Notes: a model not told the origin generated them from the letters alone. DNA of 18,452 bases from an uncultured Nitrososphaeraceae archaeon (GCA_963729045.1 CAVSMN010000003.1:1-18452); one strand, 5' to 3'; positions 1,200 through 18,139 are shown, counted from the first letter of the stretch. A program made the numbers and translations.

Positions 1200-1206
1200 A
1201 AAAAAA
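1200..1206 (-). terminator. Oligo-T archaeal terminator of the large repeat gene
   Basis: T7 on the minus strand about 11 nt after the TAG at 1218-1220. Confidence 0.5.
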
Positions 1207-1217
1207 GAGGTTAATGA

Positions 1218-2841
1218 CTAGTTATCATCTTCATCGTCGTTTTGATGTCTGTCAGTCTCATCGTTTTGATGTCTGTCAGTCTCATCGTTTTGATGTCTGT
1301 CAGTCTCATCGTTTTGATGTCTGTCAGTCTCATCTTTTTCTTGTTTTGATGAATCTGTTTCTTGTCATCTCATGAATCTGTTTCTTGTTATCATCATGAA
1401 TCTGTTTCTTGTTATCATCATGAATCTGTATTCTTGTCATCCTCATGAATCTGTTTCTTGTCATCCTCATGAATCTGTTTCTTGTCATCCTCATGAATCT
1501 GTTTCTTGTCATCCTCATGGGTTAGATCATCTTTTTCACTGTAGCCACCTTGTTGACTGCGGCGTTACTTCCACTGTTTTGTTGGGTTTGAGTACTTAAA
1601 TTGTTGCCAGAATCTTCTATATTACTTCCTGCGACTACTAAGCTCCTTTGACCGGAGGATTGGGATTGTCCTATGCCTTGATTCTATAGAGTCGCCGCTA
1701 CCGCTACCTTTGCCACTGCCACCTTGTTGACCTGCGGCGTTACTTCCACTGTTTTGTTGGGTTTGAGGTACTTGTGTTGTTACAACTTCCGACATAAGCG
1801 TCGGCACCAGAAACACACAATGAATCTTGATTAGAGGATTGGGATTGTTGTATTTTTCCTTGATTTATATAGTAGCCGCCACCTTTGCCACTGCCACCTT
1901 GTTGACCTGCGGCGTTACTTCCACTGTTTTGTTGGGTTTGAGTACTTGTGTTGTTACAAGAGTTACCTATACTACCTCCTGCGACACACATTGCATTTTG
2001 GTTAGAGGATTGGGATTGTCCTATGCCTTGATCTACAGAGTTACCGCCACCTTTGCCACTGCCACCTTGTTGACCTGCGGCGTTACTTCCACTGTTTTGT
2101 TGGGTTTGAGTACTTGTGTTGTTACAAGAGTTACCTATACTACCTCCTGCGACACACATTGCATTTTGGTTAGAGGATTGGGATTGTCCTATGCCTTGAT
2201 CTGTAGAGTTACCGCCACCTTTGCCGCTGCCACCTTGTTGACCTGCGGCGTTACTTCCACTGTTTTGTTGGGTTTGAGTACTTGTGTTGTTACAAGAGTT
2301 ACCTATACTACCTCCTGCGACACACATTGCATTTTGGTTAGAGGATTGGGATTGTCCTATGCCTTGATCTATAGAGTTACCGCCACCTTTGCCATTGCCA
2401 CCACTACCGCTGCCACCTTGTTGACCTGCGGCGTTACTTCCACTGTTTTGTTGGGTTTGAGTATTTAAATTGTTGCAAGAATCTATCTATATTACCTCCT
2501 GCGACACACTAAGCTGCATTTTGACCGGAGGATTGGGATTGTCCTATGCCTTGATCTGTAGAGTTACCGCCACCTTTGCCACTGCCACCTGACTGACCGC
2601 TGCCACCTTGTTGAGCTGCGGCGTTACTTCCACTGTTTTGTTGGGTTTGGAAGTTTGCATTGAGACATGATATAAAAGTGTCAATTCCAGCCAAACAAAT
2701 TCCAAGCTGACTGACACTCTGAATTTGTCTTATAGATTGGGTAATTTCATTTTGCGCATATACATTACTTGGAGCAGCCATTAAAGCCGGAGCCAAAGTT
2801 AACATAATGAATATTGGTAATATAATTAAAGGATATTTCAT
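1218..2841 (-). CDS. Large secreted Q/N/S/G-rich repeat protein: signal peptide, 7 modules and a charged His/Asp repeat tail. Interrupted by several 1-nt indels and one TAG (assembly error or pseudogene)
   Basis: Manual reconstruction joins tracked ORFs 2509-2841, 1740-2327, 1622-1816 and 1330-1518. ATG at 2841, signal peptide ending NVYA|Q, modules such as NSTDQGIGQSQSSNQNAMCVAGGSIGNSCNNTSTQTQQNSGSNAAGQQ with GGSGKGGG linkers, then HEDDKKQI and probably HQNDETDR octapeptide repeats ending DDEDDN-TAG at 1218-1220. A T7 tract follows. The frame of the last tail segment is ambiguous. Confidence 0.75.
1239..1334. repeat. 24-bp tandem repeat x4 (gttttgatgtctgtcagtctcatc), encoding DETDRHQN on the minus strand
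   Basis: Four perfect copies starting at 1239, 1263, 1287 and 1311. Confidence 0.95.
1348..1519. repeat. 24-bp tandem repeat x7 (catgaatctgtttcttgtcatcct), encoding HEDDKKQI / HDDNKKQI on the minus strand
   Basis: Seven copies. Two carry the variant gttatcat, one has a 1-nt insertion (about 1430) and one a 1-nt deletion (about 1369). Confidence 0.95.
1550..2751 (-). repeat. Coding tandem repeat, core period 168 bp (56 aa), 7 units of which the outer ones are diverged
   Basis: The motif gcgacacacattgc recurs at 1981, 2149 and 2317 (period 168). The next copy at 2501 is offset by 184 (15-nt longer linker plus a 1-nt insertion). Confidence 0.95.
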
Positions 2842-2870
2842 TATAGTGATTTTTCTATTTTTATTTTTGT

Positions 2871-2878
2871 TATTTAAA
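2871..2878 (-). promoter_or_regulatory. Putative TATA box (TTTAAATA) of the large repeat gene
   Basis: About 30 nt upstream of the ATG at 2841; matches the archaeal TTTAWATA consensus. Confidence 0.5.
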
Positions 2879-3372
2879 CTTTATTCAAATTAACCACAAT
2901 AATGTTCAATAACAATCATTAGTAAAATTTTTCTAAAATTATCTTACCTAACATGATATACTAATTTGCTATTGATTTCTGCTGATTTGGTAATAGTTAT
3001 TGTTATTAGTATGCTTAAAAATTACGGTATGTTAAAAGTGCCTTATATCTACCATTCTTGGTTCAAGATTGCAAATATTATTGTTACTGTAGAAATCTAA
3101 CCATTTAATCCCAATATCATCGAAAAGATTAACTTTACCAGGAAGTATCCATATCAATTAGTAGTCATATTAAATATATAGTGATCGCTAAAAGACATCC
3201 AGTATGTAAGATTATCTAAAAATTCAAAATTTTGAAAATAGTGTAAAGTCATAAAATTTATACCTAATTCATAGTAAGCACATTGAATTTAGTTACAAGT
3301 TACTAAAGACAACTCTATCAATAAATCATGAAAAAATTTAAAAGATCTCTATGATCAAGTATACAGAATAAT

Positions 3373-3744
3373 ATGAAATACGTCATGAATTCAAAATTGC
3401 CTTTTATATTTTTGTTAGTGGCAGCTGCAATGGGGACATCATTTATTCTAGGTAATAATCATAACCCAGCGATAGCTCAAACATTTTCCGTGCCCAACCC
3501 TCAAACATATTCGATGGGTAACATTGGAAATGTTACAGGTGAGGAAAGTGATAGTTTTTTCCAGTTAGATGATGCAGTACAAACTACACAGTTATTGATC
3601 AATGAAACGCAGTCGGCGATTAGCAATAACAATATTACAGAAGCAGTGAATTTACTAAACCAAGCATACAATGAAACGGTTCAAATACAAAATAATGCTA
3701 ATAATTTGATATGGGACTCACCTGCATCAAATGAAGGTGCCTAG
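3373..3744 (+). CDS. Secreted hypothetical protein with a helical C-terminal half
   Basis: Hydrophobic signal peptide ending PAIA|Q; TTTAAAA upstream (about 3337) and T8 downstream (3769-3776). Confidence 0.7.
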   Translation: MKYVMNSKLPFIFLLVAAAMGTSFILGNNHNPAIAQTFSVPNPQTYSMGNIGNVTGEESDSFFQLDDAVQTTQLLINETQSAISNNNITEAVNLLNQAYNETVQIQNNANNLIWDSPASNEGA

Positions 3745-4324
3745 ATAATCCTAGGATCAAAAGCAATCTTTTTTTTGGTCTAGTTAATCCCAGATTTTAC
3801 TATTATTAATTTATAAGCAAAACGGTTTGGCTTTTTTGAATTAGAATTATCATGTTTTTTAGTTTTATACCCAAGTAGAGACAATAAACCTATATGCATT
3901 CATAATATTATCGGTAAATAGTAATCACTTTTGAATAGTCCCACAAAAATTCAGAAATTATTTTTTATTAATCACCTAACTATGGATACACAGGTTTTCT
4001 AGATGTTAACAGATAATTATCCAATGGATGCAAGGAGTAATATTATGAAGCGATAGAATAAAAACAATTTCTTGCTTTGAATTCCATTGATAATGCATTG
4101 TAGGGGGATATCAAAGCTTGTCTTTTCTCATCCACATATCTTGTGTAATAGAATATAACAAGATTAGTATCATAAATAATAATTTTAAAGTAGGACCAGT
4201 ATCTCATTCATTATTACAGCAAAATAAAATTCGCCAAATTGTCCAACAATTTAAGGTCTAAACGACCTCCAAGACTAAAGTTACCAAGAATTATGAACTC
4301 AAATAATAGGTCATTACAAATAAA

Positions 4325-4828
4325 TTAATTATCGCATAACTCCAGCATTCGTCTTGCTTGTTGAATCCCAGTAACAGGTATATTTTTTTCTTCAATGAGT
4401 CCTATTTGAACCAAAACTGAAGCCTGATCCCAGTATATATGTTCATGAGCAATTTTAGGTCCGGCAAATTTCATAATAACTACATGAGGTATCTCCACAT
4501 ATTTGCCTGTAGGTTCTATCCCCGGTAACATATATTCAATCTCTCTATCATGAGTAAAACTAATTATGATTTCATCTACTACCTGATCTTTACCTACCGT
4601 ACGTGATATAGGTTTTATTTTTATATCTTTTGGCATTTTTCCTATAAACCTATTTTTGTAAAAGCTATATACTGCATCATATCCAAATCCACCAGTCAAA
4701 GTCGGTACATGATGAACATATGGTTCATCAGTCATTGTAGTCATAGTTGCTTCAACATCCTCTTTTTTGAATTCATATTCTATATGTTTATCAAATATTT
4801 TACCTAGTTTTTCAGGCTCTTCAGCCAT
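4325..4828 (-). CDS. SnoaL-like / NTF2-fold (ester cyclase family) protein
   Basis: Motifs DVEATMTTMTDEPYVHHVPTLTGG, SRTVGKDQVVDE, FTHD...LPGIEPTGK.VE.P.VV and KIAHEHIYWDQASVLVQIGL are typical of this family. The ATG at 4828 (MAEEPEK) is preferred to the tracked TTG at 4888. Confidence 0.85.
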   Translation of the reverse strand: MAEEPEKLGKIFDKHIEYEFKKEDVEATMTTMTDEPYVHHVPTLTGGFGYDAVYSFYKNRFIGKMPKDIKIKPISRTVGKDQVVDEIIISFTHDREIEYMLPGIEPTGKYVEIPHVVIMKFAGPKIAHEHIYWDQASVLVQIGLIEEKNIPVTGIQQARRMLELCDN

Positions 4829-5187
4829 ACTAGTCAGAGGATTTTGTCGCTTAAAGATTTGTCTAATTGATGCGGATATCAAGACCAAGTTAAAGATTCT
4901 GTTATTTGAGATTAGTATATTTTATGATAGGTATACTCCCTTCCTGAAAACAGTAAAATCCTCATGAATTTGATGAATCTGATCTCATCAGCTACCTGAT
5001 CTAAAATGCTAAAATGGAATTTATTTTTAGCTATCTATCCTGGATATTTTGGGAAATTGAAATAATTGGTTTCCGGGAGGATAAATTTGAGAAAAATACA
5101 TGTTTAGAGAAAAATCTGATAATGCTAATCAAGCTATAGTATTAAATCAATGTTAAAACATCCTGACTTAATGTTTACATATGATAG

Positions 5188-5370
5188 ATGATAACCAATA
5201 CCATGACAATGTTTGCGTGTCCAAAATGTGGAGAATCATACATTGCTACACCCCCTGACTCGGATCACAAGAAGTCAACAAAATACCCTGACAGAGATAC
5301 AATTCCAACGAGTATTGAATGTAAAATGTGTGGAAATTTAAATACGATTTATTGGAAATCAGTTCAATAA
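5188..5370 (+). CDS. Small CPxCG-type zinc ribbon protein
   Basis: Two CxxC pairs, CPKCG and CKMCG; A/T-rich tract after the stop. Confidence 0.75.
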   Translation: MITNTMTMFACPKCGESYIATPPDSDHKKSTKYPDRDTIPTSIECKMCGNLNTIYWKSVQ

Positions 5371-5544
5371 TTTTTATTTATTCATGGTTCACTGATTTAC
5401 TTTACAGGTAACGCTATGAATACGTTAAATATCATACTGGAGAAACAATTGGATATTATATACATCCAAAATTTATTGAAAATGACAATTATTCGAAATT
5501 GAATTATTAACCCTTTTACAATTGAACCAATTTTTGGAGCAACA

Positions 5545-5675
5545 ATTGGTAAAGTAAATGCGAATGTCGCGCCTTTGTTCTCATCATTGTTTTTGGCCCA
5601 TATATTTCCTCCATGAGCTTCTACGATATTTTTGCAAATATAGAGTCCAAGACCAGTCCCTGAGGGAGAACTTCT
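5545..5675 (-). pseudogene. C-terminal fragment of a histidine kinase HATPase_c domain
   Basis: [25 protein letters not shown]...GATFAFTLP is the G2 box plus terminal strands. No N, G1 or H box upstream, and the homology degenerates after FTLP. Confidence 0.8.
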
Positions 5676-5928
5676 CATAGAGAATACCATGTTTGTCATT
5701 CTATTTATTAGCCATAACTGAATCGTTTCAAATAATGATAGTTATATAGCTATTGGGCTTAAGACAAATCAACCTGGTAACGTTTTCTTTGTGGTTCTTG
5801 AAGAATTCATTGACTGCTACGAAAAGTATCAAGATTTGGAGCAAAAATATATGGATCCTTTTTTGCAATCAAATAGTATTTCTAGCAATAAACTTTTGCA
5901 GTCATGCAATGAAAATATAATAAATTAC

Positions 5929-6270
5929 TCATTGGATTGACATATTATTCAAATGTACCTCTGTTATATTCATCAGTGCTTCTTCGACATCTTCATCCAC
6001 CGGAAATCCCATTTCATCTTCTAAGTTATTTATAGCCTCATCCCAATTTTCTCCACCATTTTGATTACCATCTTCTTTGTCCTCTTGTAATGCTTGAGAA
6101 AGGTTTGCTAGTGCGGAATCTTTGATACTGTCAGATAATCCAGTTGATTCTTGTTGCGGTGATGACGGTGATGTGGTTGCGTTTACAGTTGAAATAGTTG
6201 GGGACCCAATCAATAAACCTAAAACCCCAAGGGCACAAAACATAATTATAGAAAATCTTAATTCTTGCAT
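5929..6270 (-). CDS. Secreted acidic hypothetical protein
   Basis: Signal peptide (FSIIMFCALGVLGLLIG...TVNA|T); TATA box TTTATATA at 6294-6301. Confidence 0.7.
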   Translation of the reverse strand: MQELRFSIIMFCALGVLGLLIGSPTISTVNATTSPSSPQQESTGLSDSIKDSALANLSQALQEDKEDGNQNGGENWDEAINNLEDEMGFPVDEDVEEALMNITEVHLNNMSIQ

Positions 6271-6420
6271 CTTGGTTCAATTTATTCTATTGATATATAA
6301 ATATAGACAGTCACAAAATTGTTACAATTGGTAAAACAAATTAGATACTTGACTAACAAAAGAACAAACAATTAGATAGTTAGTTGAATCATATTTGATG
6401 TAGAACATAATCAGATAAAT

Positions 6421-6673
6421 TTAATCGTTACTGAACTTTTGAATTCTGTTGTTTTCATAACCTTCTATTCCTCCATTCCCGTTGGAATCCACTATAGAAC
6501 CTTAGGATTTGAAAACTGGTCATCATCACCTTCACCTCTAGAACCTCAACTTGCATAATAAGTAAAATTTAGATCATGAAGAAAAGCAGGAGATTGTATA
6601 TCATATCATAGAGTAATAAAAGAGGGCCAAAAATTGAAACACAAATAGCAGTGATAGTATTTACTTTCAACAA
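6421..6673 (-). pseudogene. Degraded secreted NHL-repeat (beta-propeller) protein gene
   Basis: Manual translation across frames: hydrophobic leader LKVNTITAICVSIFGPLLLL, then FTYYAS*GSRGEGDDDQFSNP / GSIVDSNGNGGIEGYENNRIQKFSND*. This matches the NHL consensus WGSxGxGDGQFxxPxGIxVDSxGNxYVxDxxNNRIQKF, with W changed to TGA and frameshifts. Confidence 0.75.
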
Positions 6674-7109
6674 GTAATCGTAAACCTTAATTTATCTAGA
6701 TATTGGATACACAAATAAACAAGAATATCTGTATTTGTGCAAAATTCAAACAAGGAAATTGAAAATTTAATATTTATATGAAATACAATCATGCTCACTA
6801 GTTCCAAAGCTTTTAAATAAGATAAAAAAGGATCAGGTATCTTTAAAATTATGATTTAATACTCTCAAAACATAGGGAAATTTTATCAAAAATAAAATTT
6901 AGGAAATTTTCCGTTTTGATCAACAATAATTACTTATCCTCATCTTGTATAGTTATAGAATCTAACTAGTACTCCGATCATATCATATGATATCCAGTAA
7001 TACCATACCCTAGCCTTTTCATAATGAGATATTTCAAGGTGCTGGATGGGGGAATTATGACGGTATTTCTTTTAAATATTAATTAATCCCCTCTGTACAT
7101 ACTAGATAA

Positions 7110-7694
7110 TTGATTAAATTATTAGGCATATCAGCTGCAATCATTTTCATTTTGAATGCGGTTTCAATAGGAGGGTATCATCAGGTTGGTTGGGAGATAT
7201 ATGCTCAAAGTAACTCAACGGTTGAGACTAAGAAGCAACCAGTAGTAGCAAACGCAACTCAAGGACAACAAGCTACTGTCATAGTAACCAAAATTGTTCG
7301 TTGCGATTCCTCTTTAGGTATTCCAAATGATGATTCCGTCTGTCAATTTGTGCTTGAAAATGTTGATGCAAGTCAGTTCGATTTAGTAGTAACAGGCAAT
7401 AATCCAAACATGACTAGTTTTCAAGGATCGGCTAATGGAACAAATATTTCTTTAGATCCAGGTGATTATACCATTTCAGAAACAGCATTTGATACCATGG
7501 ATATTGAAAATCAGCTAGGAGAAACAGCGATTGTAACTATTTTAACAGATTCTAATGGGGATTGCTCATCTCAATTTAACCAAGTAGACATGTTTCAAGA
7601 AGCAAATGGTACGATATCTGATAGTGAATTACAAAACTGTGAAATTATTAATACAATCGACGTGAGTCAAGGAGCCTCCCCAGAAGCACCGTAG
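7110..7694 (+). CDS. Secreted Cys-containing beta-sandwich (prealbumin/SpaA-like fold) protein
   Basis: Signal peptide ending EIYA|Q. The pattern VIVTKIV...FDLVVTGNNP...FQGS..GT.ISLDPGDYTISET...GDC...GTI....QNCEIIN resembles surface-protein beta-sandwich domains; four Cys. TTTAAATA at 7071-7078; TTG start. Confidence 0.65.
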   Translation: MIKLLGISAAIIFILNAVSIGGYHQVGWEIYAQSNSTVETKKQPVVANATQGQQATVIVTKIVRCDSSLGIPNDDSVCQFVLENVDASQFDLVVTGNNPNMTSFQGSANGTNISLDPGDYTISETAFDTMDIENQLGETAIVTILTDSNGDCSSQFNQVDMFQEANGTISDSELQNCEIINTIDVSQGASPEAP

Positions 7695-8097
7695 GTTCAG
7701 AATGAAAATCAACAATATGTAATATCTAGACGTGAAGGCTCAACTGCAAGAATTTAAAAAATAGATTCAATCCTTTATCTTTTTTTTTCTTAAAATTACA
7801 AAAAGTTTTAAAAGCTAAACATATCATCGTATTTTCCATTTGCGAAAATTTGAACTTACCCAGAAAAATTTTTTTATTAAATTTATTAAGGATTTAAATC
7901 CTAAACCCATGTTTTTAGCATAAACTAGTTAACCTGAAATAGACATGAACTAGAGCTAAAAAACCTTCCACAAAGGCTTAGAAGATTCAAATTCATGAAA
8001 ATCTTGTACCTTTGATTCAAATAGAGAAAAATTCAACAATCATTATTAATCATATTCTATATTTTTTCGCATATACCATTATAAGTGTCGGTCCAAT

Positions 8098-8736
8098 TTG
8101 ATTATGGTCATTTTGATCCTTGCCTTATCCGCAGTTTTAAATATGATGTTTGCCTTAGACGCAACATTTGTCCAAGACCATTCCGTGTACGCATATGATA
8201 CCCATTGCTTAAGGGATAATTCAACTGTCTCATTAGACCAATATATGAATCACTTAGTAACAGAATTGATAGATTATTCATCGTCGTCATCCACTAGAAA
8301 CGTAGATGAAGAAGAAGACTGTTCAAACCAGATCAGAAATACAAATATTGATTTAGACTTTTTTGCTAATGCTTTTTCTGGCAATGTTGAATTAAATGGT
8401 TTTATAGAGATATCTTTTTCAAAGATTTTCGACTCGCTTATCCGACCTTCATCGATTGTAATATTATTTTCAATCGTGGTTACTGGATTAGTTTTGAATT
8501 CTCTTAAAAAGTTAAAGAGAAGTACGAATAAGGCTAGAAAAGGGTTTTCTCAAGGGACACGAGAAAGAATTCTTAGAAAGCAAAATCATAGATGTGTTTA
8601 CTGTAGAAAGGTCTTAAAGGTCATAGATTATCATCACAAGAATGGCAATAGATCCGATAATAGAGAAAATAACTGTCAGGCACTTTGTCCGAATTGTCAT
8701 GCCATAAAAACTAGGAACAAATTAATCAAAAATTAG
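8098..8736 (+). CDS. Membrane-anchored HNH endonuclease domain protein
   Basis: N-terminal signal ending SVYA, internal TM segment SIVILFSIVVTGLVL followed by KKLKR, and a C-terminal HNH: CVYC...DYHHKNGNRSDN...NCQALCPNCHAIKT. Confidence 0.85.
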   Translation: MIMVILILALSAVLNMMFALDATFVQDHSVYAYDTHCLRDNSTVSLDQYMNHLVTELIDYSSSSSTRNVDEEEDCSNQIRNTNIDLDFFANAFSGNVELNGFIEISFSKIFDSLIRPSSIVILFSIVVTGLVLNSLKKLKRSTNKARKGFSQGTRERILRKQNHRCVYCRKVLKVIDYHHKNGNRSDNRENNCQALCPNCHAIKTRNKLIKN

Positions 8737-8951
8737 ACTCGTTTGTTTATCCAATCACCGTTATATTTGACAATGTTTAATGCCAGTTTATACCGGCAAA
8801 ATGATTGTTAGTTCAATAATAAACAGATAAAGTACAACAATGAAGTCCGTACCGATTACGGTGATATGGCATATTGGTTCAAATCCCTTCAAGCGATTGT
8901 TATTTGTGATAATGACGAAACTACGTCGGTGTAAAAAGCACTAAAGGAAAA

Positions 8952-9428
8952 TTAATTAGTTTCTGACGATTCAGGTCTTTGGATAATTTTGTCCAATATT
9001 TCTTTTACTAAAGTTGATTTCTCCTTTATTGAGCCTTCTCCAACAGGGTACAAGTTGTATTGCTGGTTTAGTAAATCATTACAGCGGTCTAGATCCTTAT
9101 CGTAAACAAATAGCACACTTCTAAGAATACCTATATTCGAATGTTTAATAGGATTCTCCGAGGATCCAATAATGTTACCAATATTTTGTAAATAATAATC
9201 TTTAGTTTTGTTTAATGTCTTTTCAAGTCGTTCAAAGAAATCAATGAGAGCAAAATTATTATTGTTTTCGTGCTCATTTTTGATTTCCCGCTTTAATCTT
9301 TCTCTATAGTATTCAAATGAGCAATGAATTATGTCAGTATACCTCAAATAATTGTTCTTGGGGGTATCAAAAACCACAGTTCTTCCATATGTAAATAAAT
9401 CATATAATGCTTTTCTTGACATGAACAT
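8952..9428 (-). CDS. Hypothetical helical protein
   Basis: 158-codon ORF in AT-rich DNA with protein-like composition; no motif recognised. Confidence 0.55.
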   Translation of the reverse strand: MFMSRKALYDLFTYGRTVVFDTPKNNYLRYTDIIHCSFEYYRERLKREIKNEHENNNNFALIDFFERLEKTLNKTKDYYLQNIGNIIGSSENPIKHSNIGILRSVLFVYDKDLDRCNDLLNQQYNLYPVGEGSIKEKSTLVKEILDKIIQRPESSETN

Positions 9429-10508
9429 CTATTTAATACCAAAATTTTGATAAAACATGAGCTGTGGAATAAGGATGAAAACAATCAGTCAATTACACGT
9501 AGGTCAAAGAGGAAAACAAAGGTGCATTAATGAAACAATGAGACAACTAGATAAAATACATCCTATGGGTAGATAAACCTTGATATATGTTATCCATAGA
9601 AAAATATTCGAGTTGGTCTAAGAATGACATCTTAATCTGATTCGCTTGATTTACTTATATCGGTAGATTTATTTTCAGAGTGAGATCCGTATCAAAGTCT
9701 TTTGCCAGTTCCCTATCGGGGTACACTTAGATACACTAGAATTAGAAGGGTGTTTGTATATTTAATAATCAAACAATCATGCAAAAAAAATAACCTCAAT
9801 ACCACGTAATTTCTATTACATTACCAGAGATCTCTACGTTTTGAACTAAACACAAGTGTATTCCGTCGGGTTTGAATAAATCAAATCCGAAATCATCAAT
9901 TTGTACCAGAACCAAGAATATTTCTATTTTATGTTGGGGAAGAATGAAGTTAAATATGATATTGTATTATGTTCTCTGGTTTCAATGTTTCTAGGATTAT
10001 TTAACATAAACGACCTTATTTTGCATTGTATACTGGAGCTGTCATTATGGGTTGATTTTTGGATTGGAGCAAAAAGAGAGAAAGTCAAAGGGGAAGGTAA
10101 CATGGATCGGGACTCTGAATTGTGATAGGAGGTTCAATGATATTTACATATGTTTCTGCACTAGTTGATCCCAAGTCCACATCGAGGACCACTTCCCAGA
10201 TCGTCACTGGAATAGCATTTCTAGTGGTTAGAATAAAATTAAAAGGCGAGTTATTTGACTATAAGAATTCAGACAGGCCTGAAATAAGAAAGTATTAGAT
10301 TTGAGGACAGCAGCAAGTTTATGTTTTTCCGCAGCAATCGAAATGGCAATAGGTTTTAACTTTTACTTTGTAGCTATAAATTCAATAGCTATTGCAGTAA
10401 TAGTACCTTAAATTCCAAAAATAGGAAAAAGACGTAAGAAGACTTGTGAATAATAAAGAGACAGATGTCATGAGTAAATATAAAATTAAGAGAAATCTAG
10501 ATGTATTT

Positions 10509-12475: not shown

Positions 12476-12483
12476 TTTATATA
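12476..12483 (+). promoter_or_regulatory. TATA box (TTTATATA)
   Basis: Consensus match ending 22 nt before the ATG at 12506, consistent with a leaderless or short-leader transcript. Confidence 0.6.
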
Positions 12484-12505
12484 AGACGATGGATAACTAT
12501 GAATA

Positions 12506-13096
12506 ATGTCAAAACAAGATAAAAAAGAAACATCTACCTCTACAACCAGTTCAACTACAAAAGATAATATAGATCAAGCAGTTCAAATCAATACTGAAAT
12601 TTTCAATCGAGCTGTAGAAGAAAACACACAATCTCTAAATCAGGTATTTGAAGAGTCCAAAAAAAATATTGAAAGAAACATTACCGAAGCAAAAAATCAG
12701 ATCCCTTTGTACACAAAATCAATAAATGAGGTTCAAGAGCAAGCAGTTCAAGCTACAAGAGATATGGCAGAAAACTACCTTGACTATCAAAAACAAACCA
12801 TTGATTCCTTCCAATCTATTGTAACACCATATTTTGAAAATGCAAATAACCAGTTATGGAACAACCAAGATATATTTAGAAGATATCCAGAAATTTATTC
12901 AAAAATAGCCAATAATTGTGCAGAAAATACAGTAGCTATTACCCGAGTAATGAACAATATTGCATTTTCAAACGTTGAAATAGTAAAAACAGTAATCAAC
13001 AACACAAAAGAACAATCAAAGCAATTTGCAGAAATAGGAAAGAGAAACGCAAGAGTTTACGAATCTTTTGAAAGAGATAACAGAAACAGCCTTTAA
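12506..13096 (+). CDS. Amphipathic all-helical protein, phasin-like
   Basis: Q/N/E-rich amphipathic helices (INEVQEQAVQATRDMAENYLDYQKQTIDSFQS); no signal peptide. The family call rests on pattern recall only. Confidence 0.6.
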   Translation: MSKQDKKETSTSTTSSTTKDNIDQAVQINTEIFNRAVEENTQSLNQVFEESKKNIERNITEAKNQIPLYTKSINEVQEQAVQATRDMAENYLDYQKQTIDSFQSIVTPYFENANNQLWNNQDIFRRYPEIYSKIANNCAENTVAITRVMNNIAFSNVEIVKTVINNTKEQSKQFAEIGKRNARVYESFERDNRNSL

Positions 13097-13105
13097 ATAA
13101 AATCC

Positions 13106-13152
13106 AACTTTTGACTACAATTTGAGTCAAGAGTTTTTCATTTACTTTTTTT
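13106..13152 (+). terminator. Hairpin plus T-tracts after the phasin-like gene
   Basis: aacttttgact-acaatttg-agtcaagagtt inverted repeat (one G-U pair) followed by T runs. Confidence 0.5.
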
Positions 13153-14564
13153 AGCTAACTAATTTTCTATAGCATAAAGATAACATTTAGCAACAAGTGT
13201 CTAGCAGAATAATCTGATTTATCCAATTTCCAGTATTTCTATGAAACTGTATTAAAGGTCTCGTTGTATAGGGTTTAAAGGGTAAATCAACTTTTCTCGT
13301 ATCTCACTTGCCTTGATTTTAATAAAACTATAGATTTAGATTTTGTTTGATATTTGGACAAACCAGGCTTTTTGTTAAGTCAAGTTCAGTTATGTTGTGT
13401 CGCTATTATGGATGCCATTGTATCTGGTTTATTGTTGATAGAATAATTTAGATAGACGATAACTTAGATTAGATCTCCAATAAAACTAGTAAATGCTAGA
13501 TATCAAAAGGGAAAAGACTACTCGTTCATTTATTAATTTGCAAGAATATGATATTAATTAATAAAGTTTGGTAGCATCTCAGATATTATGCAAAATAGTA
13601 GGATAAATGACCATCATCATCGTTTTCCTATTCTACCTATTTGGTTGATGTTTTAGCAATAGTTATCAATGATCAGTCACCATTTTTGTCACTTATTTCT
13701 AAAGACATGGGTACGCCGTTGGGAGGAACATCCATCTCATTTTTTTCACTTCCTTCATAATAGGGATGAGCATAAAATAAACAATCACAACCATTGTTCT
13801 TATTACATAACGGTTCTTAATTGCATCTTCTGTAATAGTTTCGACTTTTGTAATCCCACACCTATCTATTTCATACATTAACATTAAGATAGTAACACCT
13901 ATCTTACCACAATTAATAGTTATAATGATTATAGGTTTTGTTATAGTGAGTTTATAAATATCAAAAGAGGTAACCAAAAAATAAATTATTCTCTGATTTA
14001 ATTCTTTAAAAAATAAACCCAATCAAGATAGAAAATGTGTTCAGCCATGATACGTTATGCATTTAATAGAAATAATAAGTCCATACAATGATTAGACATT
14101 AAACATAATTTGTAGACAGTATCATGCTACACTCCTGAAGAGTGGTCAAAAGGAAAAATCAATACGGTGTATGTGTTTAGTTTAGTGTTATCATCAAATA
14201 AACGCTTACTCTCGATCCAACTTAATTTGTGATTTTCAGTGAATATCAATATGTAAAAATATTTGGTTTGATTAAGAACCTTTAGTCTTTTTTCATCGAC
14301 TGTCGATTTCTAATGTTGCATATCGATCATCATAGTAAAGCGACTCAATCAAGAATACTTGATTGAAAAGAATTTATTTTCAGATTTTTCATACTAGACT
14401 ATAGTAATAAACACCGTGGCCTCAGTTAAAGTATCAAACCAACGATAGAATCAGTAAGAGATATCTAAAATATAAGGTTTTCAATCTTAAAGTACACAAG
14501 AATTTTATAGTTTTTAGCTTGAAAAGTCAGATATCTAAAGTTCATCGCAATAATAATGATTTAA

Positions 14565-14834
14565 ATGTCTACGATAACTAGAACACCAATAATTATTGCA
14601 GTGCTTGCTATTGCATCATTATTTGTCGCTGGCCCAGTATCAATGAGCATGGATGAATTAAATGTTTACGCTAATAAGAAATCAGACGCCGCATCACAAG
14701 GTCTATCACAGGGTGAATTGTCTGAACAATCCAGTGAAGTATTTTCAGAGAATGGAACCAGTACTGCTTCAGGTAATAACGTTGATTTATCATTTAACCT
14801 AAATGACGGCCAAAACGCATTAGGTCAACAATAA
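14565..14834 (+). CDS. Secreted single-module member of the Q/N-rich GQQ family (Cys-free variant)
   Basis: Signal peptide ending NVYA|N; module DAASQGLSQGELSEQSSEVFSENGTSTASGNNVDLSFNLNDGQNALGQQ-stop; T-tract at 14841-14846. Confidence 0.85.
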   Translation: MSTITRTPIIIAVLAIASLFVAGPVSMSMDELNVYANKKSDAASQGLSQGELSEQSSEVFSENGTSTASGNNVDLSFNLNDGQNALGQQ

Positions 14835-15340
14835 ACTTTATTTTTTCTAAATCCTTGATATACGATTTTCCTACAACACGATATCTAAATATCATCCTAA
14901 ATGCTACAAAATACTTCTAAATACGATTGTTTCAATTTATCAAATTACACGATAATAATATTTTAAGATAACAGTTCCTATATGTAAGGAAATGTAATAG
15001 TAACAAATCAGTTCAGGGCTTAATTCACCGTTCCACTCATTTAATTAAAAGATCGGTAAATGGAACGATCGGTTTGAAATCTAAGTCAGAGACAAGAAAC
15101 ATGATTCTCCAATTGATTATAGTAATAAGAGGTAGTATGTTTCTGGATCTCGTCGCAGAACCTACAGTAACGTTTGATGAACAACTAGGAATTCATTTAA
15201 ATGATAAAGCCAAGTCTCTAGTCAGGTTATAAATAAATATTCTGTAAAATTATTCTAAATTTATCGGATAGAACTAAATATGCTAAAGATCTTAAAAAAT
15301 TATTATATCTTATAATTTATGTATAGAAATTAATACTAAA

Positions 15341-15871
15341 ATGTTTAGGTCAAATAATACAAAATCTACCACAGTATTAATTGTAGTAGCACTAGCAACA
15401 GTAATGATAATGGGTCCATCAAATATCAAACGTGGGTGATGTATTTGCAAAACAAAAATACAACGATTGGGATGATTGTAGAGACGATCACAGTAAGAAC
15501 TGGTGCAAGAAATATTTCAAACATCATGACAATGACGATGATAATGATGGAAATAGAGCATCACAAGGTATTGGTCAAAGCCAATCCTCAGAGTCAAAAC
15601 AGCCAAGTAGTTTCTGGCGGAGATTCAAAAGGCTCAGGAAACAACTTTAGCTTCCAAAACCAAGAAAATTCTGGAAATAACGCATTAGCACAAGATTCGG
15701 CGGTGATGATGACGATGATGATGGAAATAGAGCATCACAAGGTATTGGTCAAAGCCAATCCTCAAGTCAAAACAGCCAAGTAGTTTCTGGCGGAGATTCA
15801 TAGATTCAGGAAACAACTTTAGCTTCCAAAACCAAGAAAATTCTGGAAATAACGCATTAGGCCAACAATAA
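15341..15871 (+). CDS. Secreted two-module member of the GQQ family, broken by four frameshifts
   Basis: ATG 15341 MFRSNNTKSTTVLIVVALATVMIMGPS, shift near 15422, ISNVGDVFA|KQKYNDWDDCRDDHSKNWCKKYFKHHDNDDDND, then two copies of GNRASQGIGQSQSSSQNSQVVSGGDSxxSGNNFSFQNQENSGNNAL(A/G)Q with shifts near 15591, 15698 and 15801. Ends GQQ-TAA at 15869-15871, then T8 at 15875-15882. Confidence 0.75.
15533..15860 (+). repeat. Near-identical direct repeat x2, period 174 bp
   Basis: ggaaatagagcatcacaaggtattggtcaaagcc starts at 15549 and again at 15723. Confidence 0.95.
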
Positions 15872-15996
15872 ATCTTTTTTTTGAGTAGATTTAATTATAT
15901 CGAAGAAGGTCAAACATCCCCCACAATCTAACATAGCATTTAGGACTTTATCACTATCAAACATGTTAAAATATAGTAGTTGTCATTAGAGTATAG

Positions 15997-16317
15997 TTGA
16001 AGATATCAGAATTATGTGAAATGATTGAAGAATCATTTCGTTCGGGAAAATATCCTTTAACACAAGAAACTGAAAAACGAATGTCAAAACTTGTCAAAGT
16101 GATAAATAGATCATCTTCAGAAGACATGAAAGGAGATAACATAATCATTGAAACCAGGATCAGTGATTTTTTTGTTATGAATAATTATGTGGCAGAGATC
16201 ACACATTTACCAGGAATGATAGAAATGGATACGCTAGATTCTTTTAAGATGCTTAGTAGACGCATTGACAGAGCTAAGAACGATGTAAATAACATCACCA
16301 TTAAAAAAATTAAGTAA
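15997..16317 (+). CDS. Hypothetical protein
   Basis: 106-aa ORF with TTG start and globular composition; T-tract downstream. Confidence 0.65.
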   Translation: MKISELCEMIEESFRSGKYPLTQETEKRMSKLVKVINRSSSEDMKGDNIIIETRISDFFVMNNYVAEITHLPGMIEMDTLDSFKMLSRRIDRAKNDVNNITIKKIK

Positions 16318-16565
16318 TAACTTTACTACATACCAGCAAAATTTTTATTTCTATATACGAGAGAATCTTTGAATTAGACCAAAGTTACATGTTAATTGCA
16401 ATACACGAAATCCCAATAAGCTTTTAATGTATTTATAACCTGATTTTCAGACTGTTGAATATCAAAAAATGTTTAAGGAGTATTCATGGCATAAACCATA
16501 AAAAATTACAAATTTGACAACAATAGTTAAAGTCAGATTTAAGAAAAAGTAGTAAAAAAAATTTT

Positions 16566-16838
16566 CTAATTAATTATGGTTTTATAATTTCTGGTTGGAG
16601 TCGCAAGTAATTCTTCGATTTCACTATTCATCTTTAAGAAAATTAGTCCCTTTTGGGTGGTTTTATATTCCGATCCTTCTATATATTCAATTAAATCATT
16701 TTCTATAAGAACAGAGAGATATTCTTTAAGTTGTGCGTAGCTCAGAAAAGCTTTGTACATTATTTTAGTTTTAGTAGCGCCACCATTGGCTGCTTCAAGA
16801 ATCATAGCTACAATTTCGGTGCGGCTTCTGTATTTCAT
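16566..16838 (-). CDS. Archaeal winged helix-turn-helix transcription regulator (HTH_45-like)
   Basis: MKYRSRTEIVAMILEAANGGATKTKIMYKAFLSYAQLKEYLSVLIENDLIEY...YKTTQKG is the typical pattern. The ATG at 16838 is preferred, with TTATATA at 16862-16868. Confidence 0.9.
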   Translation of the reverse strand: MKYRSRTEIVAMILEAANGGATKTKIMYKAFLSYAQLKEYLSVLIENDLIEYIEGSEYKTTQKGLIFLKMNSEIEELLATPTRNYKTIIN

Positions 16839-17219
16839 ATTAATATATATAACATCACTAGTATATAACCGTCTACAAATTAGAGCCAATATCGCTTAGA
16901 ACTTTACGAGCGTTTATGCCATTTGCCAAAAAAAATACGGCTAATTACACAGGAGATGGTTGAAACAATTCAACTTGTCTAAATATTTAAGAGCTAATGA
17001 AATTGACGACAAATAGGAAATATTGAGACACAATTTCATATAATAAAAGATGCAATATTTCTATAAATATCGCGGGTTCATATTTTATCATAATTACATA
17101 AAATGACATTGTCAACCACCTATTCCCTCAAAAATCAGTCATTTAGAACAGTCCACTATTCAAATACTTTAAGATATACAAAATATAGCATAAGATCTAA
17201 AAGTGGAGTGAAAGCATAG

Positions 17220-17699
17220 TTGAGATACTCTAACGAATACGAAAAAAATGGTAATGAGGAGGAGGATTGTATTATAAGACCTCAAGTCAAAATAGTCAAC
17301 TGCCCCATCAAAACAAGCCTCGGAGTCTTAGGCAAGAAGTGGACCATGCTAATAATAAGAGACATTGGTTTTCTAAAGATCAGGAGATTTAATAGAATAT
17401 TAGAATCAATTCCAGGACTAACACCAAGAGTGTTATCCATGCGCTTAAAGGAGTTGGAAAGGGAAGGTATCATAAAATGCAAGGAAGTGAGAAAAGACCA
17501 AGTAATGATATTATGGAGTTTGACCGAAAAGGGAGAAGACATCTTACCCATTTTACTTTTGTTAACGGCTTTTGGGTCGAAATGGTATCCTGAATTTGTT
17601 TTTGAGGACAAAAAGCCAAGGAGATTAGACGAAGTCTTTTTTCAACCTGAAACAAGACAGAGGATACTTGAATATAACAAAAGGTTCAGACTAAGGTAA
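17220..17699 (+). CDS. HxlR-family winged-helix transcription regulator
   Basis: CPIKTSLGVLGKKWTMLIIRD...RRFN.I...IPGLTPRVLS.RLKELEREGII...SLTEKG..ILPIL; N-terminal CP Cys as in thiol-sensing HxlR/DUF24 members. Confidence 0.9.
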   Translation: MRYSNEYEKNGNEEEDCIIRPQVKIVNCPIKTSLGVLGKKWTMLIIRDIGFLKIRRFNRILESIPGLTPRVLSMRLKELEREGIIKCKEVRKDQVMILWSLTEKGEDILPILLLLTAFGSKWYPEFVFEDKKPRRLDEVFFQPETRQRILEYNKRFRLR

Positions 17700-17857
17700 T
17701 ACTGAAAGAAACTAACAAAAAACTAGAATCAACGTAATCTTGTTATAAAATAACTAATATAAACTAATATAGTAACTTAATACCGTCATGATATTCTAAT
17801 AAAAAAAACTAGTAACAAGTATCCAAACTATGATATAATTAATTTCAGTTATACTTT

Positions 17858-18139
17858 ATGATTATAATGAGTAACATAACAAAAAACTATAAAGTAGGAA
17901 TTTTTGCAATGTTTATTGCAGCAGCCTTAATTGGTTCAGTTGTAGCCCTTGGTGATAACATGGCATATGCAGGCGGAAAACACAAGAAATCTAATGATGC
18001 AGAGCAAGCAATTGAACAAGGCCAAGCAAGCGAACAGAATGCACAATGTGTATCTGGAGACTTTTCATTAATATGTGGAAATAACGTAAACTTGCAATTA
18101 CAAGACCAATTAGGCAATTTGGCATTAGGCCAACAATAA
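17858..18139 (+). CDS. Secreted single-module member of the GQQ family (Cys-pair variant)
   Basis: Signal peptide ending MAYA|G; module NDAEQAIEQGQASEQNAQCVSGDFSLICGNNVNLQLQDQLGNLALGQQ-stop; T8 at 18142-18149. The start may be the ATG at 17867. Confidence 0.85.
   Translation: MIIMSNITKNYKVGIFAMFIAAALIGSVVALGDNMAYAGGKHKKSNDAEQAIEQGQASEQNAQCVSGDFSLICGNNVNLQLQDQLGNLALGQQ

What the first reader, a model, noticed from the sequence alone, without database searches (positions are those of the whole stretch)
1218..18139. Four-gene family of secreted Q/N-rich GQQ-module proteins: candidate archaeal functional amyloid or matrix fibre system
Seen: four genes (1218-2841 minus, 14565-14834, 15341-15871, 17858-18139) each encode a Sec-type signal peptide plus 7, 1, 2 and 1 copies of one ~48-aa module. 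Hand consensus: N-x3-Q-x-I-x-Q-x-Q-x-S-x-Q-x-[AS]-x-[CV]-V-[SA]-G-x4-6-S-[CG]-N-N-x3-Q-x-Q-x-N-x-G-x-N-A-x-G-Q-Q. Conserved residues fall largely at every second position on both sides of a central Gly turn, and Pro is absent. Established: secreted Q/N/G/S-rich imperfect repeats with Q/N ladders are the hallmark of bacterial functional amyloids (curli CsgA/CsgB, Pseudomonas FapC/FapB), and Streptomyces chaplins come as short single-domain and long multi-domain paralogues. Inference: the module is a long beta-hairpin or beta-arch that stacks into cross-beta fibres or sheets, with divergent paralogues as major, minor or nucleator subunits of an extracellular matrix in an aggregate-forming ammonia-oxidising archaeon. 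I do not recognise the module as a named family.
Basis: partly seen in the sequence, partly recalled or inferred. Interest (0 to 1): 0.9.

Follow-up and report, generated by a model that had tools for sequence, protein, structure and literature searches.

The report
Secreted Q/N-rich repeat family of Nitrosocosmicus
A soil ammonia-oxidising archaeon that lacks the usual archaeal surface layer carries about fifty genes for exported proteins built from one 48-residue glutamine/asparagine-rich unit, which may build its still unidentified cell wall or matrix.

Summary
The 48-residue module is real, but the finding needs two corrections.

1. Two of the four window genes (1218-2841 minus, 15341-15871 plus) are not open frames as given. 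They carry in-frame TAGs and several frame changes. These are most likely assembly errors. rpoB is also split in this genome, and independent contigs lack the extra base at three of the break sites.
2. The family is not four genes. The genome holds 51 loci with 103 modules. The module was found in 14 of 14 same-genus genomes (Ca. Nitrosocosmicus by database names) and in only 4 of 106 other genomes of the family.

No Pfam, NCBIfam, PDB-sequence or Curlin_rpt match was found, and the papers I searched do not mention it.

- **Fold:** Covariation (Cys19-Cys29, register i+j about 48) and one low-confidence AlphaFold model point to a long, disulfide-stapled strand-turn-strand unit. One face is an almost invariant Q/N ladder.
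- **Expression:** Soil metatranscriptome contigs cover two of the genes.
- **Reading:** These are probably self-associating structural proteins of the wall or matrix of this S-layer-free genus. Amyloid formation is plausible but untested. The single-module protein was predicted unstructured, and the oligomer predictor was unavailable.

The scan had not noted this family before.

The parts
1218..2841 (-). Gene 1: signal peptide, seven modules and an acidic repeat tail. Not open in this assembly (TAG at 2509-2511 and at least six frame changes).
   Evidence: Intact orthologues of 618 and 654 aa have the same N-terminus, 9-10 modules and an acidic tail. Tandem period is 168 nt x 6.0 copies over 1544-2590.
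2755..2841 (-). Signal-peptide-like N-terminus of gene 1 (29 residues ending in a small-x-small motif).
   Evidence: translation. A metatranscriptome contig of run X17 covers 2628-2831 (table 8).
2608..2751 (-). Module 1 of gene 1 (full, Cys pair).
   Evidence: profile positions 1-48, E 3e-15.
2418..2565 (-). Module 2 of gene 1, broken by TAG 2509-2511 and one extra base at 2485.
   Evidence: Base 2485 is left out in one DNA contig (X1) and one RNA-library contig (X15). The X15 contig also lacks 2506, 2516 and 2518, which removes the stop (table 4).
1899..2378 (-). Modules 3, 4 and 5 of gene 1 (2235-2378, 2067-2210, 1899-2042), intact and 98% identical to each other.
1558..1874 (-). Modules 6 and 7 of gene 1, each interrupted by single-base frame changes (near 1755, 1685 and 1560).
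1218..1550 (-). Acidic C-terminal tail of gene 1 with two 24-nt tandem arrays (1237-1339 and 1349-1519). At least two further frame changes.
   Evidence: Orthologues P0122 and P0433 also end in acidic repeats.
14565..14834 (+). Intact 89-aa gene: signal peptide plus one divergent, Cys-free module (about 14688-14831).
   Evidence: (E 6e-13).
15341..15871 (+). Gene 3: signal peptide, a Cys-containing head and two modules (about 15552-15696 and 15726-15868). Not open in this assembly (at least four frame changes, TAG near 15801).
   Evidence: Bases 15418 (runs X1 and X4) and 15591 (X1) are left out in independent DNA contigs, exactly at two breaks. An intact 187-aa paralogue lies at C16:35524-36084.
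17858..18139 (+). Intact 93-aa gene: signal peptide (17858-17971), a short Lys-rich spacer and one module (17993-18136) with the second Cys shifted by one position.
   Evidence: (E 1.6e-18). Orthologues are 78-99% identical in the best 120 of 745 clusters. Two RNA-library contigs of run X15 cover position 18037 (table 3).

Best explanation
These genes belong to a large family of Sec-exported proteins that is specific to the genus Ca. Nitrosocosmicus. Each protein has a signal peptide, a short variable head and 1 to about 10 copies of a 48-residue module. Most proteins end exactly at the last module, with no membrane anchor or sorting signal.

- **Module (inferred):** a long strand-turn-strand unit of about 20 residues per arm. 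In most copies a disulfide between positions 19 and 29 (or 28) staples it near the Gly turn.
- **Two faces:** all conserved residues (Q5, I7, Q9, Q11, S13, Q15 on one arm; N31, Q35, Q37, N39, G41, N43, Q47 on the other) fall on one face. The other face varies freely.
- **Most likely mechanism (inferred):** the invariant Q/N face is a self-association surface, a polar zipper. Modules would stack on one another within a chain and between chains to form sheets or fibres outside the cell.
- **Proposed role (inferred):** these assemblies would contribute to the thick wall, the hair-like surface filaments or the aggregate matrix of this S-layer-free genus. A few larger surface proteins may be docked by the same module.

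Shown here: the family, its anatomy, its genus restriction and its presence in RNA libraries. Inferred: the fold, the self-assembly and the location in the wall.
For: - **Family size.** There are 51 loci and 103 modules in this 2.85-Mb genome. Of the 51 loci, 25 are single open frames with a hydrophobic N-terminus, at least one full module and at most 2 residues after the last module.
- **Database proteins.** All 433 fetched proteins hold the module. Of these, 379 end within 2 residues of the last module and 354 have an M start plus a hydrophobic N-terminal segment.
- **Genus restriction.** Only 4 of 106 genomes of 17 other genera in the family had a match, with 1-3 matches each. Only 301 of 1.84 billion representative proteins match at E<=0.001.
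- **Fold.** Cys19-Cys29 is by far the strongest covarying pair (corrected MI 0.72, next best 0.34). Six of the ten long-range pairs among the top 25 have i+j = 46-49, where about 10% is expected (binomial p 1.5e-4). Of 620 modules, 395 have C19/C29, 80 have C19/C28 and 129 have V19/G29. About 10 carry a single Cys. The best AlphaFold model of a 3-module paralogue gives one pair of 20-25-residue strands per module.
- **Constraint.** The 93-aa orthologues are 78-99% identical in the best 120 of 745 clusters, across several named species.
- **Expression.** Contigs from two soil RNA libraries cover gene 1 (2477-2518 in X15, 2628-2831 in X17). X15 contigs also cover 17858-18139. The same libraries leave 2839-4994 uncovered, while both DNA runs cover it, which argues against DNA carry-over.
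- **Surface context.** The module is fused to a NosD-type beta-helix and to a beta-propeller plus PKD protein elsewhere in the genome.
- **Literature (passages read).** All Nitrosocosmicus examined lack S-layer genes. Cryo-tomography shows an approximately 18-nm wall and approximately 30-nm hair-like filaments of unknown composition (PMC11559005).
Against: - **Weak structure prediction.** The 3-module model has mean pLDDT 58.2 and pTM 0.43, and the other four models scored 33-43.
- **Single module unstructured.** The single-module protein of this window was predicted with no secondary structure in its mature part (pLDDT 40-53). That fits a disordered coat as well as folding on assembly.
- **No fold match above noise.** Foldseek gave FapC at E 6.9e-5 but TM 0.17, and CsgA at E 0.027 with TM 0.07-0.12. 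VIA-align's best was CsgA at Z 5.0 with rmsd 8.0 A over 71 residues, and only 12 of 48,161 chains reached Z>=2.
- **No dedicated neighbours.** No accessory, secretion or nucleator gene recurs beside the family loci. The most frequent neighbour groups among 418 neighbouring ORFs were antisense frames of the family genes and a methyltransferase-like group at 5 loci.
- **No direct localisation.** There is no proteomic evidence, no evidence of abundance and no localisation. Contig depths cannot rank expression.
- **Single lineage.** The link to the missing S-layer rests on one lineage, so it is one evolutionary event and not a statistical association.
- **Different published view.** The papers read attribute the outer layer to a glycocalyx of glycoprotein or glycolipid.
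Confidence: 0.5

Rival explanations
1. The proteins are true functional amyloid: cross-beta fibres in which each module is one layer of a beta-arcade, like curli or Fap. Single-module paralogues would act as nucleators or caps.
For: - Modules hold 34% Q+N and almost no Pro or aromatics.
- The repeats are strand-turn-strand with a conserved inward-type ladder.
- The second arm carries a Q-x-N-x-G-N-x-A-x3-Q pattern, which resembles the curlin repeat motif as I recall it. This comparison was not computed.
- CsgA and FapC are the top or near-top hits of two different structure searches. A parallel RTX beta-roll aligned 58 residues at 1.6 A across all six strands (Z 3.9).
- Archaeal envelopes made of amyloid-like protein are known from methanogen sheaths (abstracts of PMC6242892 and PMC10593813).
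Against: - The Curlin_rpt model found nothing in the genome at E<=10 (0 of 11 candidates).
- The module profile found no PDB chain at E<=10, although CsgA and FapC chains are in that bank.
- All structural scores are within the range the tools call noise.
- The module is more than twice the length of a curlin repeat.
- The monomer prediction is unstructured.
- There is no accessory operon.
- No assembly test could be run, because the oligomer predictor was unavailable.
Confidence: 0.25
2. The proteins are a hydrophilic, largely disordered and glycosylated coat (a mucin-like glycocalyx) that holds water and cations. They form no ordered beta assembly.
For: - The mature single-module protein is predicted without secondary structure.
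- Confidence is low for the 3-module model.
- An N-x-S/T sequon sits at module position 31 in 211 of 620 modules, with 0.69 sequons per module overall.
- Acidic repeat tails and Asp/Glu-rich subfamilies occur.
- Cryo-tomography was read by its authors as a glycocalyx (PMC11559005).
Against: - Strict period-2 conservation over about 20 residues on each arm is not expected of a disordered chain.
- Paired gain and loss of the two Cys, and long-range covariation in one antiparallel register, also argue against disorder.
- Ser+Thr is modest and Pro is nearly absent, unlike mucin-type stalks.
Confidence: 0.15
3. The module is mainly a wall-binding or docking unit. It would attach proteins to a polysaccharide or protein wall made of something else, like SLH, LysM or choline-binding repeats. 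The small proteins would then be fillers or regulators of that wall.
For: - Modules or half-modules occur with a NosD-type beta-helix (C11:102266-103054) and at the C-terminal end of a beta-propeller plus PKD protein (C13:105148-105981).
- Most proteins end exactly at a module (379 of 433).
- The conserved flat polar face could bind a regular glycan lattice. This is inference.
Against: - Only about 4-5 of 51 loci carry another domain.
- The great majority of proteins consist of modules alone, which is unusual for a pure anchoring domain.
- No ligand is known.
Confidence: 0.07
4. The small paralogues are secreted signalling or antimicrobial peptides (archaeocin-like). The long forms would be polyprotein precursors.
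For: - Many small, Cys-pair-containing exported peptides occur in clusters, some beside HTH regulators. HxlR at 17220-17699 and HTH_45 at 16566-16889 lie next to the window genes.
- One relative gave a weak, below-cut-off Sublancin match (E 0.001, 19.6 bits against a cut-off of 26.9).
Against: - The 93-aa orthologues are very highly conserved across species, not diversifying.
- No immunity, transporter or modification genes recur beside them, and HxlR neighbours were seen at only 2 loci.
- No protease sites are evident between modules.
- The composition is unlike known peptide toxins.
Confidence: 0.03

Closest known systems
Curli subunits CsgA/CsgB (Curlin_rpt, PF07012)
   Same: - Sec-exported Q/N/G/S/A-rich imperfect tandem repeats.
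- Each repeat is a strand-turn-strand with conserved Gln/Asn ladders.
- The G-N-x-A...Q pattern in the second arm is similar (motif recalled, not computed).
- CsgA is the best VIA-align hit (Z 5.0) and second in Foldseek.
   Different: - The module is 48 residues rather than about 20 and carries a Cys pair.
- There is no match to the Pfam model and no sequence match to PDB curli chains.
- There are no csgB/E/F/G-like neighbours.
- The host is an archaeon with no outer membrane.
- There are about 50 paralogous loci rather than one operon.
Pseudomonas FapC/FapB functional amyloid
   Same: - Secreted Q/N-rich imperfect repeats that form a beta-solenoid fibre.
- Top Foldseek hit (9u4u_A, E 6.9e-5, probability 0.66).
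- VIA-align Z 3.6.
   Different: - TM-score is only 0.17 with rmsd over 20 A, so the models do not superpose.
- There is no sequence match.
- No fap operon context was seen.
Streptomyces chaplins
   Same: - Paralogous family with short single-domain and long multi-domain members.
- Two conserved Cys per domain.
- Secreted surface-assembling proteins (established knowledge, recalled).
   Different: - Chaplin domains are hydrophobic, while these modules hold 34% Q+N.
- No Pfam hit of any kind was found.
- The long forms carry no sortase-type anchor.
Amyloid-like sheath proteins of Methanospirillum and Methanothrix
   Same: Archaeal extracellular envelope built from beta-rich, amyloid-like protein (abstracts of PMC6242892, PMC10593813 and PMC11576556).
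   Different: - They belong to a different phylum and are large globular-core subunits that assemble into rings, not short Q/N repeats.
- The sheath survey's main text has no occurrence of Nitrososphaer-, Thaumarchae- or Thermoproteota (term search, PMC11576556).
- No sequence comparison was run here beyond the PDB profile search, which found nothing.
Ice-binding and antifreeze beta-solenoids with flat polar faces
   Same: They have regularly spaced polar residues on one flat beta face. Several appear among the weak Foldseek hits (E 0.3-4).
   Different: - The scores are at chance level.
- Thr ladders are typical there, against Gln/Asn here.
- No ecological link was found.

Membership tests
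Curli (Curlin_rpt, PF07012) | Sequence match to the curlin repeat model above its cut-off (20.7 bits) | tested here: not met
   The six-frame search of the whole genome gave 0 matches at E<=10 among 11 candidates, while the control rang in E. coli. hmmscan of the window proteins at E<=10 listed no Curlin_rpt.
Curli (Curlin_rpt, PF07012) | Repeat unit of about 19-23 residues, five per subunit | tested here: not met
   The module is 48 residues with 1 to about 10 copies per protein. The curli repeat length is recalled.
Curli (Curlin_rpt, PF07012) | Dedicated nucleator and secretion genes next to the subunit gene | tested here: not met
   No non-family gene recurs at more than 5 of 51 loci among 418 neighbouring ORFs. 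CsgE/F/G models were not searched by name.
Curli (Curlin_rpt, PF07012) | Beta-solenoid fold superposable on CsgA | tested here: inconclusive
   VIA-align gave Z 5.0 with rmsd 8.0 A over 71 residues. Foldseek gave E 0.027 and TM 0.07-0.12. The query model has pLDDT 58.
Fap amyloid (FapC) | Sequence or fold similarity to FapC | tested here: inconclusive
   Foldseek gave E 6.9e-5 and probability 0.66, but TM 0.17. VIA-align gave Z 3.6. The module profile found no PDB sequence at E<=10.
Chaplins | Hydrophobic chaplin domain recognised by Pfam | tested here: not met
   No Pfam family at E<=0.01 for any family protein. Modules hold 34% Q+N.
Functional amyloid (generic) | Cross-beta fibres: 4.7-4.8 A reflection, dye binding, SDS resistance | not testable with these tools
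   This needs bench work. The oligomer predictor was unavailable.
Sec-exported proteins | N-terminal signal peptide with charged n-region, hydrophobic h-region and small-x-small cleavage motif | tested here: met
   - Translations show the pattern.
- A 15-residue hydrophobic window of at least 2.2 is present in the 25 complete loci.
- 354 of 433 database proteins have an M start plus a hydrophobic N-terminal segment.
- This was judged by eye and by hydropathy, not by a signal-peptide predictor.
Disulfide-stapled hairpin or arch module (this family's own definition) | The two Cys are gained and lost together and lie symmetrically about the Gly turn | tested here: met
   Of 620 modules, 475 have two Cys (395 C19/C29 and 80 C19/C28), 129 have V19/G29 and about 10 have one Cys. 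This pair is the top covarying pair, with corrected MI 0.72.

The most novel reading that the evidence does not exclude
Nitrosocosmicus has replaced the archaeal S-layer with a wall built from this family. Disulfide-stapled 48-residue Q/N arches would stack by polar zippers into cross-beta sheets or fibres. These would form the approximately 18-nm wall and the approximately 30-nm surface hairs seen by cryo-tomography. Acidic tails and Asp/Glu-rich paralogues would tune surface charge and ammonium capture. Half-modules would dock other surface enzymes. That would be the first amyloid-type cell wall in Nitrososphaerota and a new, sequence-unrelated class of functional amyloid.
Probability: 0.2. 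Interest if true: 0.88.

Novelty: new variant of a known kind. Interest (0 to 1): 0.68.

Why it matters
Nitrosocosmicus species are abundant soil, wastewater and skin nitrifiers. They tolerate high ammonia, have low substrate affinity and form aggregates and biofilms quickly.

- **Open question.** Recent work shows they lack S-layer genes and an S-layer. It leaves open what their thick wall and surface filaments are made of (PMC11559005 passages; PMC12448741 passages).
- **Concrete candidate.** A genus-specific family of about 50 loci encoding exported, self-similar Q/N-rich proteins is a testable candidate for that material. None of the papers I read mention it.
- **If confirmed.** It would explain envelope-linked traits such as adhesion, aggregation and ion capture. 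It would also add an archaeal family, unrelated in sequence, to the known self-assembling beta-repeat proteins.
- **Caution for annotators.** This genome's assembly carries single-base indels that break real genes.

Tried and rejected
- **Oligomer prediction.** Complex prediction with four copies of the mature 17858 protein was unavailable and nothing was folded.
- **Gene 14565-14834 in RNA libraries.** No RNA-library contig of X15 or X17 lay on 14158-15235. This is a hole in contig data, not evidence of silence.
- **Depth values.** The depths were not used to rank genes, as the tool warns.
- **X1 contig at the TAG.** The X1 DNA contig keeps a stop near 2509 while differing at 2506 and 2516. 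Its end lies 40-60 nt away, so I drew no conclusion from it.
- **Published transcriptomes.**
  - No occurrence of NMY3_03441 or NMY3_01457 in the supplements of PMC11561398 (its transcriptomes are of N. viennensis and N. europaea) or of PMC11559005.
  - A full-text search for the tags found no archaeal paper.
  - The N. franklandianus tables of PMC12448741 carry locus tags and TPM but no sequences. I could not map family members to tags, so those supplements may hold decisive expression data that I could not use.
- **Literature searches for the family.**
  - 'Nitrosocosmicus' + 'amyloid': 3 papers, none relevant by listing.
  - 'Nitrosocosmicus' + 'proteome' and + 'proteomic' + 'hypothetical protein': nothing on this family by listing.
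  - A low-complexity term search brought up no Nitrosocosmicus paper in the 10 listed.
- **ESM Atlas.** Only the family's own unnamed Nitrososphaerota clusters came up.
- **Longer fused forms in the protein collection.** Only 4 hits, all module arrays. The tool says crowding makes this weak.
- **Earlier scan notes.** Nothing related by sequence, place or words.
- **Weak family hits dismissed as below cut-off.** Gp38_N, Meg, DUF3493, Conotoxin, DUF7465, Sublancin and RadB-type lipoprotein.
- **Pseudogenes.** I rejected the reading that the two broken genes are decayed pseudogenes, though it is not excluded. rpoB and class-I tRNA synthetase genes are also split in this assembly, and three break sites are absent from independent contigs.
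- **Coordinates by peptide look-up.** I derived the coordinates instead.

Full report
**1. What the window is**

The 18,452-base window is a whole contig (C3) of a draft genome of 2.85 Mb in 22 contigs. GC is about 0.33 and estimated completeness is 87%. Named database relatives of its proteins are almost all Candidatus Nitrosocosmicus: N. arcticus, N. oleophilus, N. hydrocola, and strains FF01, T and SS. A few metagenome bins are labelled Nitrosopumilus sp. or Saccharimonadales.

**2. Checking the observation**

The ORF list under table 11 shows only two of the four claimed genes as intact frames: 14565-14834 (89 aa) and 17858-18139 (93 aa).

- Gene 1218-2841 (minus) falls into pieces. After the signal peptide, module 1 and the first half of module 2 there is an in-frame TAG (2509-2511). 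A frame change follows at about 2485. Three intact modules come next, then further single-base frame changes near 1755, 1685 and 1560, and at least two more in the acidic tail.
- Gene 15341-15871 changes frame near 15418, 15591, 15700 and 15800, and has a TAG near 15801.

A profile built from the genome's own copies finds the module in every one of these pieces, with domain E-values from 4e-4 down to 1e-22 genome-wide. The aligned modules (61 copies, alignment A2) are 48 residues long. Q5, Q9, Q15, G41 and Q47 are invariant, and N1, I7, Q11, S13, G22, S28, N30, N31, Q35, Q37, N39, N43 and A44 are at least 90% conserved.

At the DNA level gene 1 is a 168-nt tandem array of 6.0 copies, followed by two 24-nt arrays in the tail.

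**3. Are the broken genes pseudogenes?**

Probably not.

- The assembly splits essential genes. The Rpb2_6 domain of rpoB lies in two overlapping frames at C7:79847-80779 and 80775-80969. The translation shows the conserved C-terminal part continuing in another frame. Class-I tRNA synthetase matches are also split on C16 and C19.
- I laid public contigs on window:2300-18452. Single bases are left out exactly where I had placed the frame breaks:
  - 2485 in one soil DNA contig (X1) and one soil RNA-library contig (X15);
  - 15418 in DNA contigs of two studies (X1, X4);
  - 15591 in X1.
- The X15 contig also lacks 2506, 2516 and 2518, which removes the TAG and keeps the frame (table 4).
- Orthologues of gene 1 are intact in other genomes. 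P0122 (618 aa) and P0433 (654 aa) have the same signal peptide, 9-10 modules and an acidic repeat tail. P0002 (352 aa) is from strain FF01.
- An intact two-module paralogue of gene 3 lies at C16:35524-36084.

Strain-specific decay is not excluded. The X1 contig still shows a stop near 2509.

**4. Size and range of the family**

In this genome the profile finds 103 modules in 62 open-frame pieces, which merge into 51 loci.

- 25 loci are single open frames with a hydrophobic N-terminus, at least one full module and at most 2 residues after the last module.
- 6 loci are in two or more pieces.
- The rest are fragments or fusions.
- Three two-module paralogues of 163 aa are near-identical in sequence.

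Across genomes:

- Among 121 genomes of the same taxonomic family, 14 of 14 of the same genus have the module.
- Only 4 of 106 genomes from 17 other genera have any match, 1-3 each. One of those lies on the end of a short contig.
- In a library of 1.84 billion representative proteins, 301 match at E<=0.001 and 28 at E<=1e-30.
- The 93-aa protein of 17858 has 745 database clusters at E<=0.001. The best 120 are 78-99% identical, for example N. arcticus 96%, N. oleophilus NMY3_03441 94% and N. hydrocola 93%.
- Of the 433 family proteins fetched, 246 have one module, 41 two, 108 three and 33 four; five have more. 379 end within two residues of the last module, and 354 have an M start plus a hydrophobic N-terminal segment.

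**5. Is it a known family?**

- There is no Pfam or NCBIfam family above cut-off for any member.
- The Curlin_rpt model finds nothing in the genome at E<=10.
- The module profile finds no PDB chain at E<=10.
- The ESM Atlas returns only the family's own unnamed clusters.
- In the passages I read of three recent papers on Nitrosocosmicus genomics, surface structure, biofilms and skin strains, the family is not mentioned (PMC11559005, PMC12448741, PMC13245735). Four further searches gave nothing.

**6. Structure**

Covariation was computed on 620 unique modules (effective number 160).

- The pair 19-29 stands out, with corrected MI 0.72 against 0.34 for the next pair.
- Among the top 25 pairs, ten are long-range. 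Six of these have i+j between 46 and 49, where about 10% is expected (p 1.5e-4).
- The two Cys appear and vanish together: 395 C/C, 80 with the second Cys one place earlier (the 17858 subfamily), 129 V/G and about 10 with one Cys.

With that register, every conserved odd position of the first arm faces a conserved odd position of the second: 5-43, 7-41, 9-39, 11-37, 13-35. One face is therefore an almost invariant Q/N ladder with a single Ile-Gly pair, and the other face is variable. This follows from the alignment plus the register and is an inference.

AlphaFold2 results:

- On a 3-module paralogue with 60 aligned relatives, the best model had mean pLDDT 58.2 and pTM 0.43. It shows six strands of 20-25 residues, two per module, with the turn at module positions 22-25. 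The other four models scored 33-43.
- On the 93-aa window protein with 65 relatives, only the signal helix was predicted. The mature part had pLDDT 40-53.

- Foldseek put FapC first (E 6.9e-5, probability 0.66, TM 0.17) and CsgA second (E 0.027).
- The Foldseek-independent VIA-align search found 12 of 48,161 chains at Z>=2. They were led by CsgA (Z 5.0, rmsd 8.0 A, 71 residues), an RTX beta-roll (Z 3.9, 1.6 A, 58 residues) and FapC (Z 3.6).
- All of these lie below what the tools regard as meaningful. The kind of hit (parallel beta-solenoids and the two bacterial amyloids) fits a stacked-arch model but does not establish it.

I could not inspect coordinates, so hairpin meander and stacked arcade remain undistinguished.

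**7. Expression**

Contigs from two soil metatranscriptome libraries of different studies lie on gene 1.

- X15 covers 2477-2518.
- X17 has a 204-nt contig on 2628-2831 with 3 differences.

Two X15 contigs cover position 18037 inside 17858-18139. The same libraries leave 2839-4994 uncovered, although both DNA runs cover it, which argues against DNA carry-over. The runs were found with words from 1000-10000, so cover of gene 1 is partly by choice. Cover of 17858-18139 is not. Paralogues at 92% identity or more could contribute.

**8. Context**

- No gene recurs beside the family loci, so there is no curli-like accessory set.
- The window genes sit among small regulators (HxlR 17220-17699, HTH_45 16566-16889) and other small exported proteins.
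- Elsewhere in the genome the module is joined to a NosD-type beta-helix, and a half-module follows a beta-propeller plus PKD protein. This places the module among cell-surface domains.
- By the papers, all Nitrosocosmicus examined lack S-layer and anchor genes. Cryo-tomography shows an approximately 18-nm wall and approximately 30-nm hair-like filaments whose components are unknown.

**9. Reading**

- Near-certain: this is a real, expressed, genus-specific family of exported repeat proteins.
- Likely (about 0.7): the module is a disulfide-stapled strand-turn-strand unit.
- About even (0.5): the conserved Q/N face mediates self-association into wall or matrix material.
- About 0.25: the assemblies are amyloid in the strict sense.

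The rivals are a disordered glycosylated coat, a wall-docking module and secreted peptides. They are listed with their evidence in the rival explanations.

**10. Verdict**

In kind, this is a new, sequence-unrelated variant of secreted self-assembling beta-repeat proteins. It matters because it offers a concrete candidate for an envelope whose composition is an open question.

Noticed in passing
G000:C7:79847-80969; C16:1588-3733; C19:860-2927; window 7990 and 9511: The assembly carries single-base indels in essential genes. rpoB is split into two frames, and class-I tRNA synthetase matches are split too. Both independent DNA runs differ from the window by one base at 7990 and at 9511. Gene calls on this genome will be fragmented.
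   Followed up: partly
window 12506-13096 (+): A 196-aa protein with weak apolipoprotein- and phasin-like matches (below cut-off). RNA-library contigs of both metatranscriptomes cover it.
   Followed up: no
window 2-568 (+): A matrixin-type zinc metalloprotease (Peptidase_M10, E 9e-12) runs off the contig start. A poly-Asp stretch precedes it.
   Followed up: no
window 5397-5699 (-): Only the C-terminal HATPase_c part of a histidine kinase is open (100 aa). It is probably another gene broken by assembly indels.
   Followed up: no
window 3373-3744, 5929-6270, 7110-7694: Three further small proteins have hydrophobic N-termini and no Pfam family. The contig is rich in small exported proteins of unknown function. 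RNA-library contigs lie on 5771-6242 and 7133-7788.
   Followed up: no
L031 (G000:C11:102266-103054); L034 (G000:C13:105148-105981); G000:C11:161203-162102: The module occurs fused to other surface domains. One protein has a signal peptide, a module and a NosD-type beta-helix. One has a beta-propeller, a PKD domain and then a half-module. One has a half-module followed by a long Ser/Gly/Thr-rich repeat.
   Followed up: partly
G000:C18:41288-41776, C18:53433-53921, C13:41921-42409: Three near-identical 163-aa two-module paralogues (differing only in the last few residues), and near-identical four-module genes with the same subtilisin-like neighbour on C8 and C9. These point to recent segmental duplications of family loci.
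   Followed up: no
window 17993-18136 and its orthologues: In the 17858 subfamily the second Cys sits one position earlier (position 28, with Gly at 29). This holds in 80 of 620 unique modules, so the staple is kept but its register is shifted.
   Followed up: partly
window 14826-14850, 15863-15885, 18131-18152: All three plus-strand family genes end in the same ...CAACAATAA followed by a run of T. This looks like a shared archaeal terminator directly after the stop.
   Followed up: no
window 17220-17699 (+): An HxlR-type regulator lies directly upstream of 17858. An HxlR-like neighbour was seen at only 2 of 51 family loci, so no general pairing is evident.
   Followed up: partly
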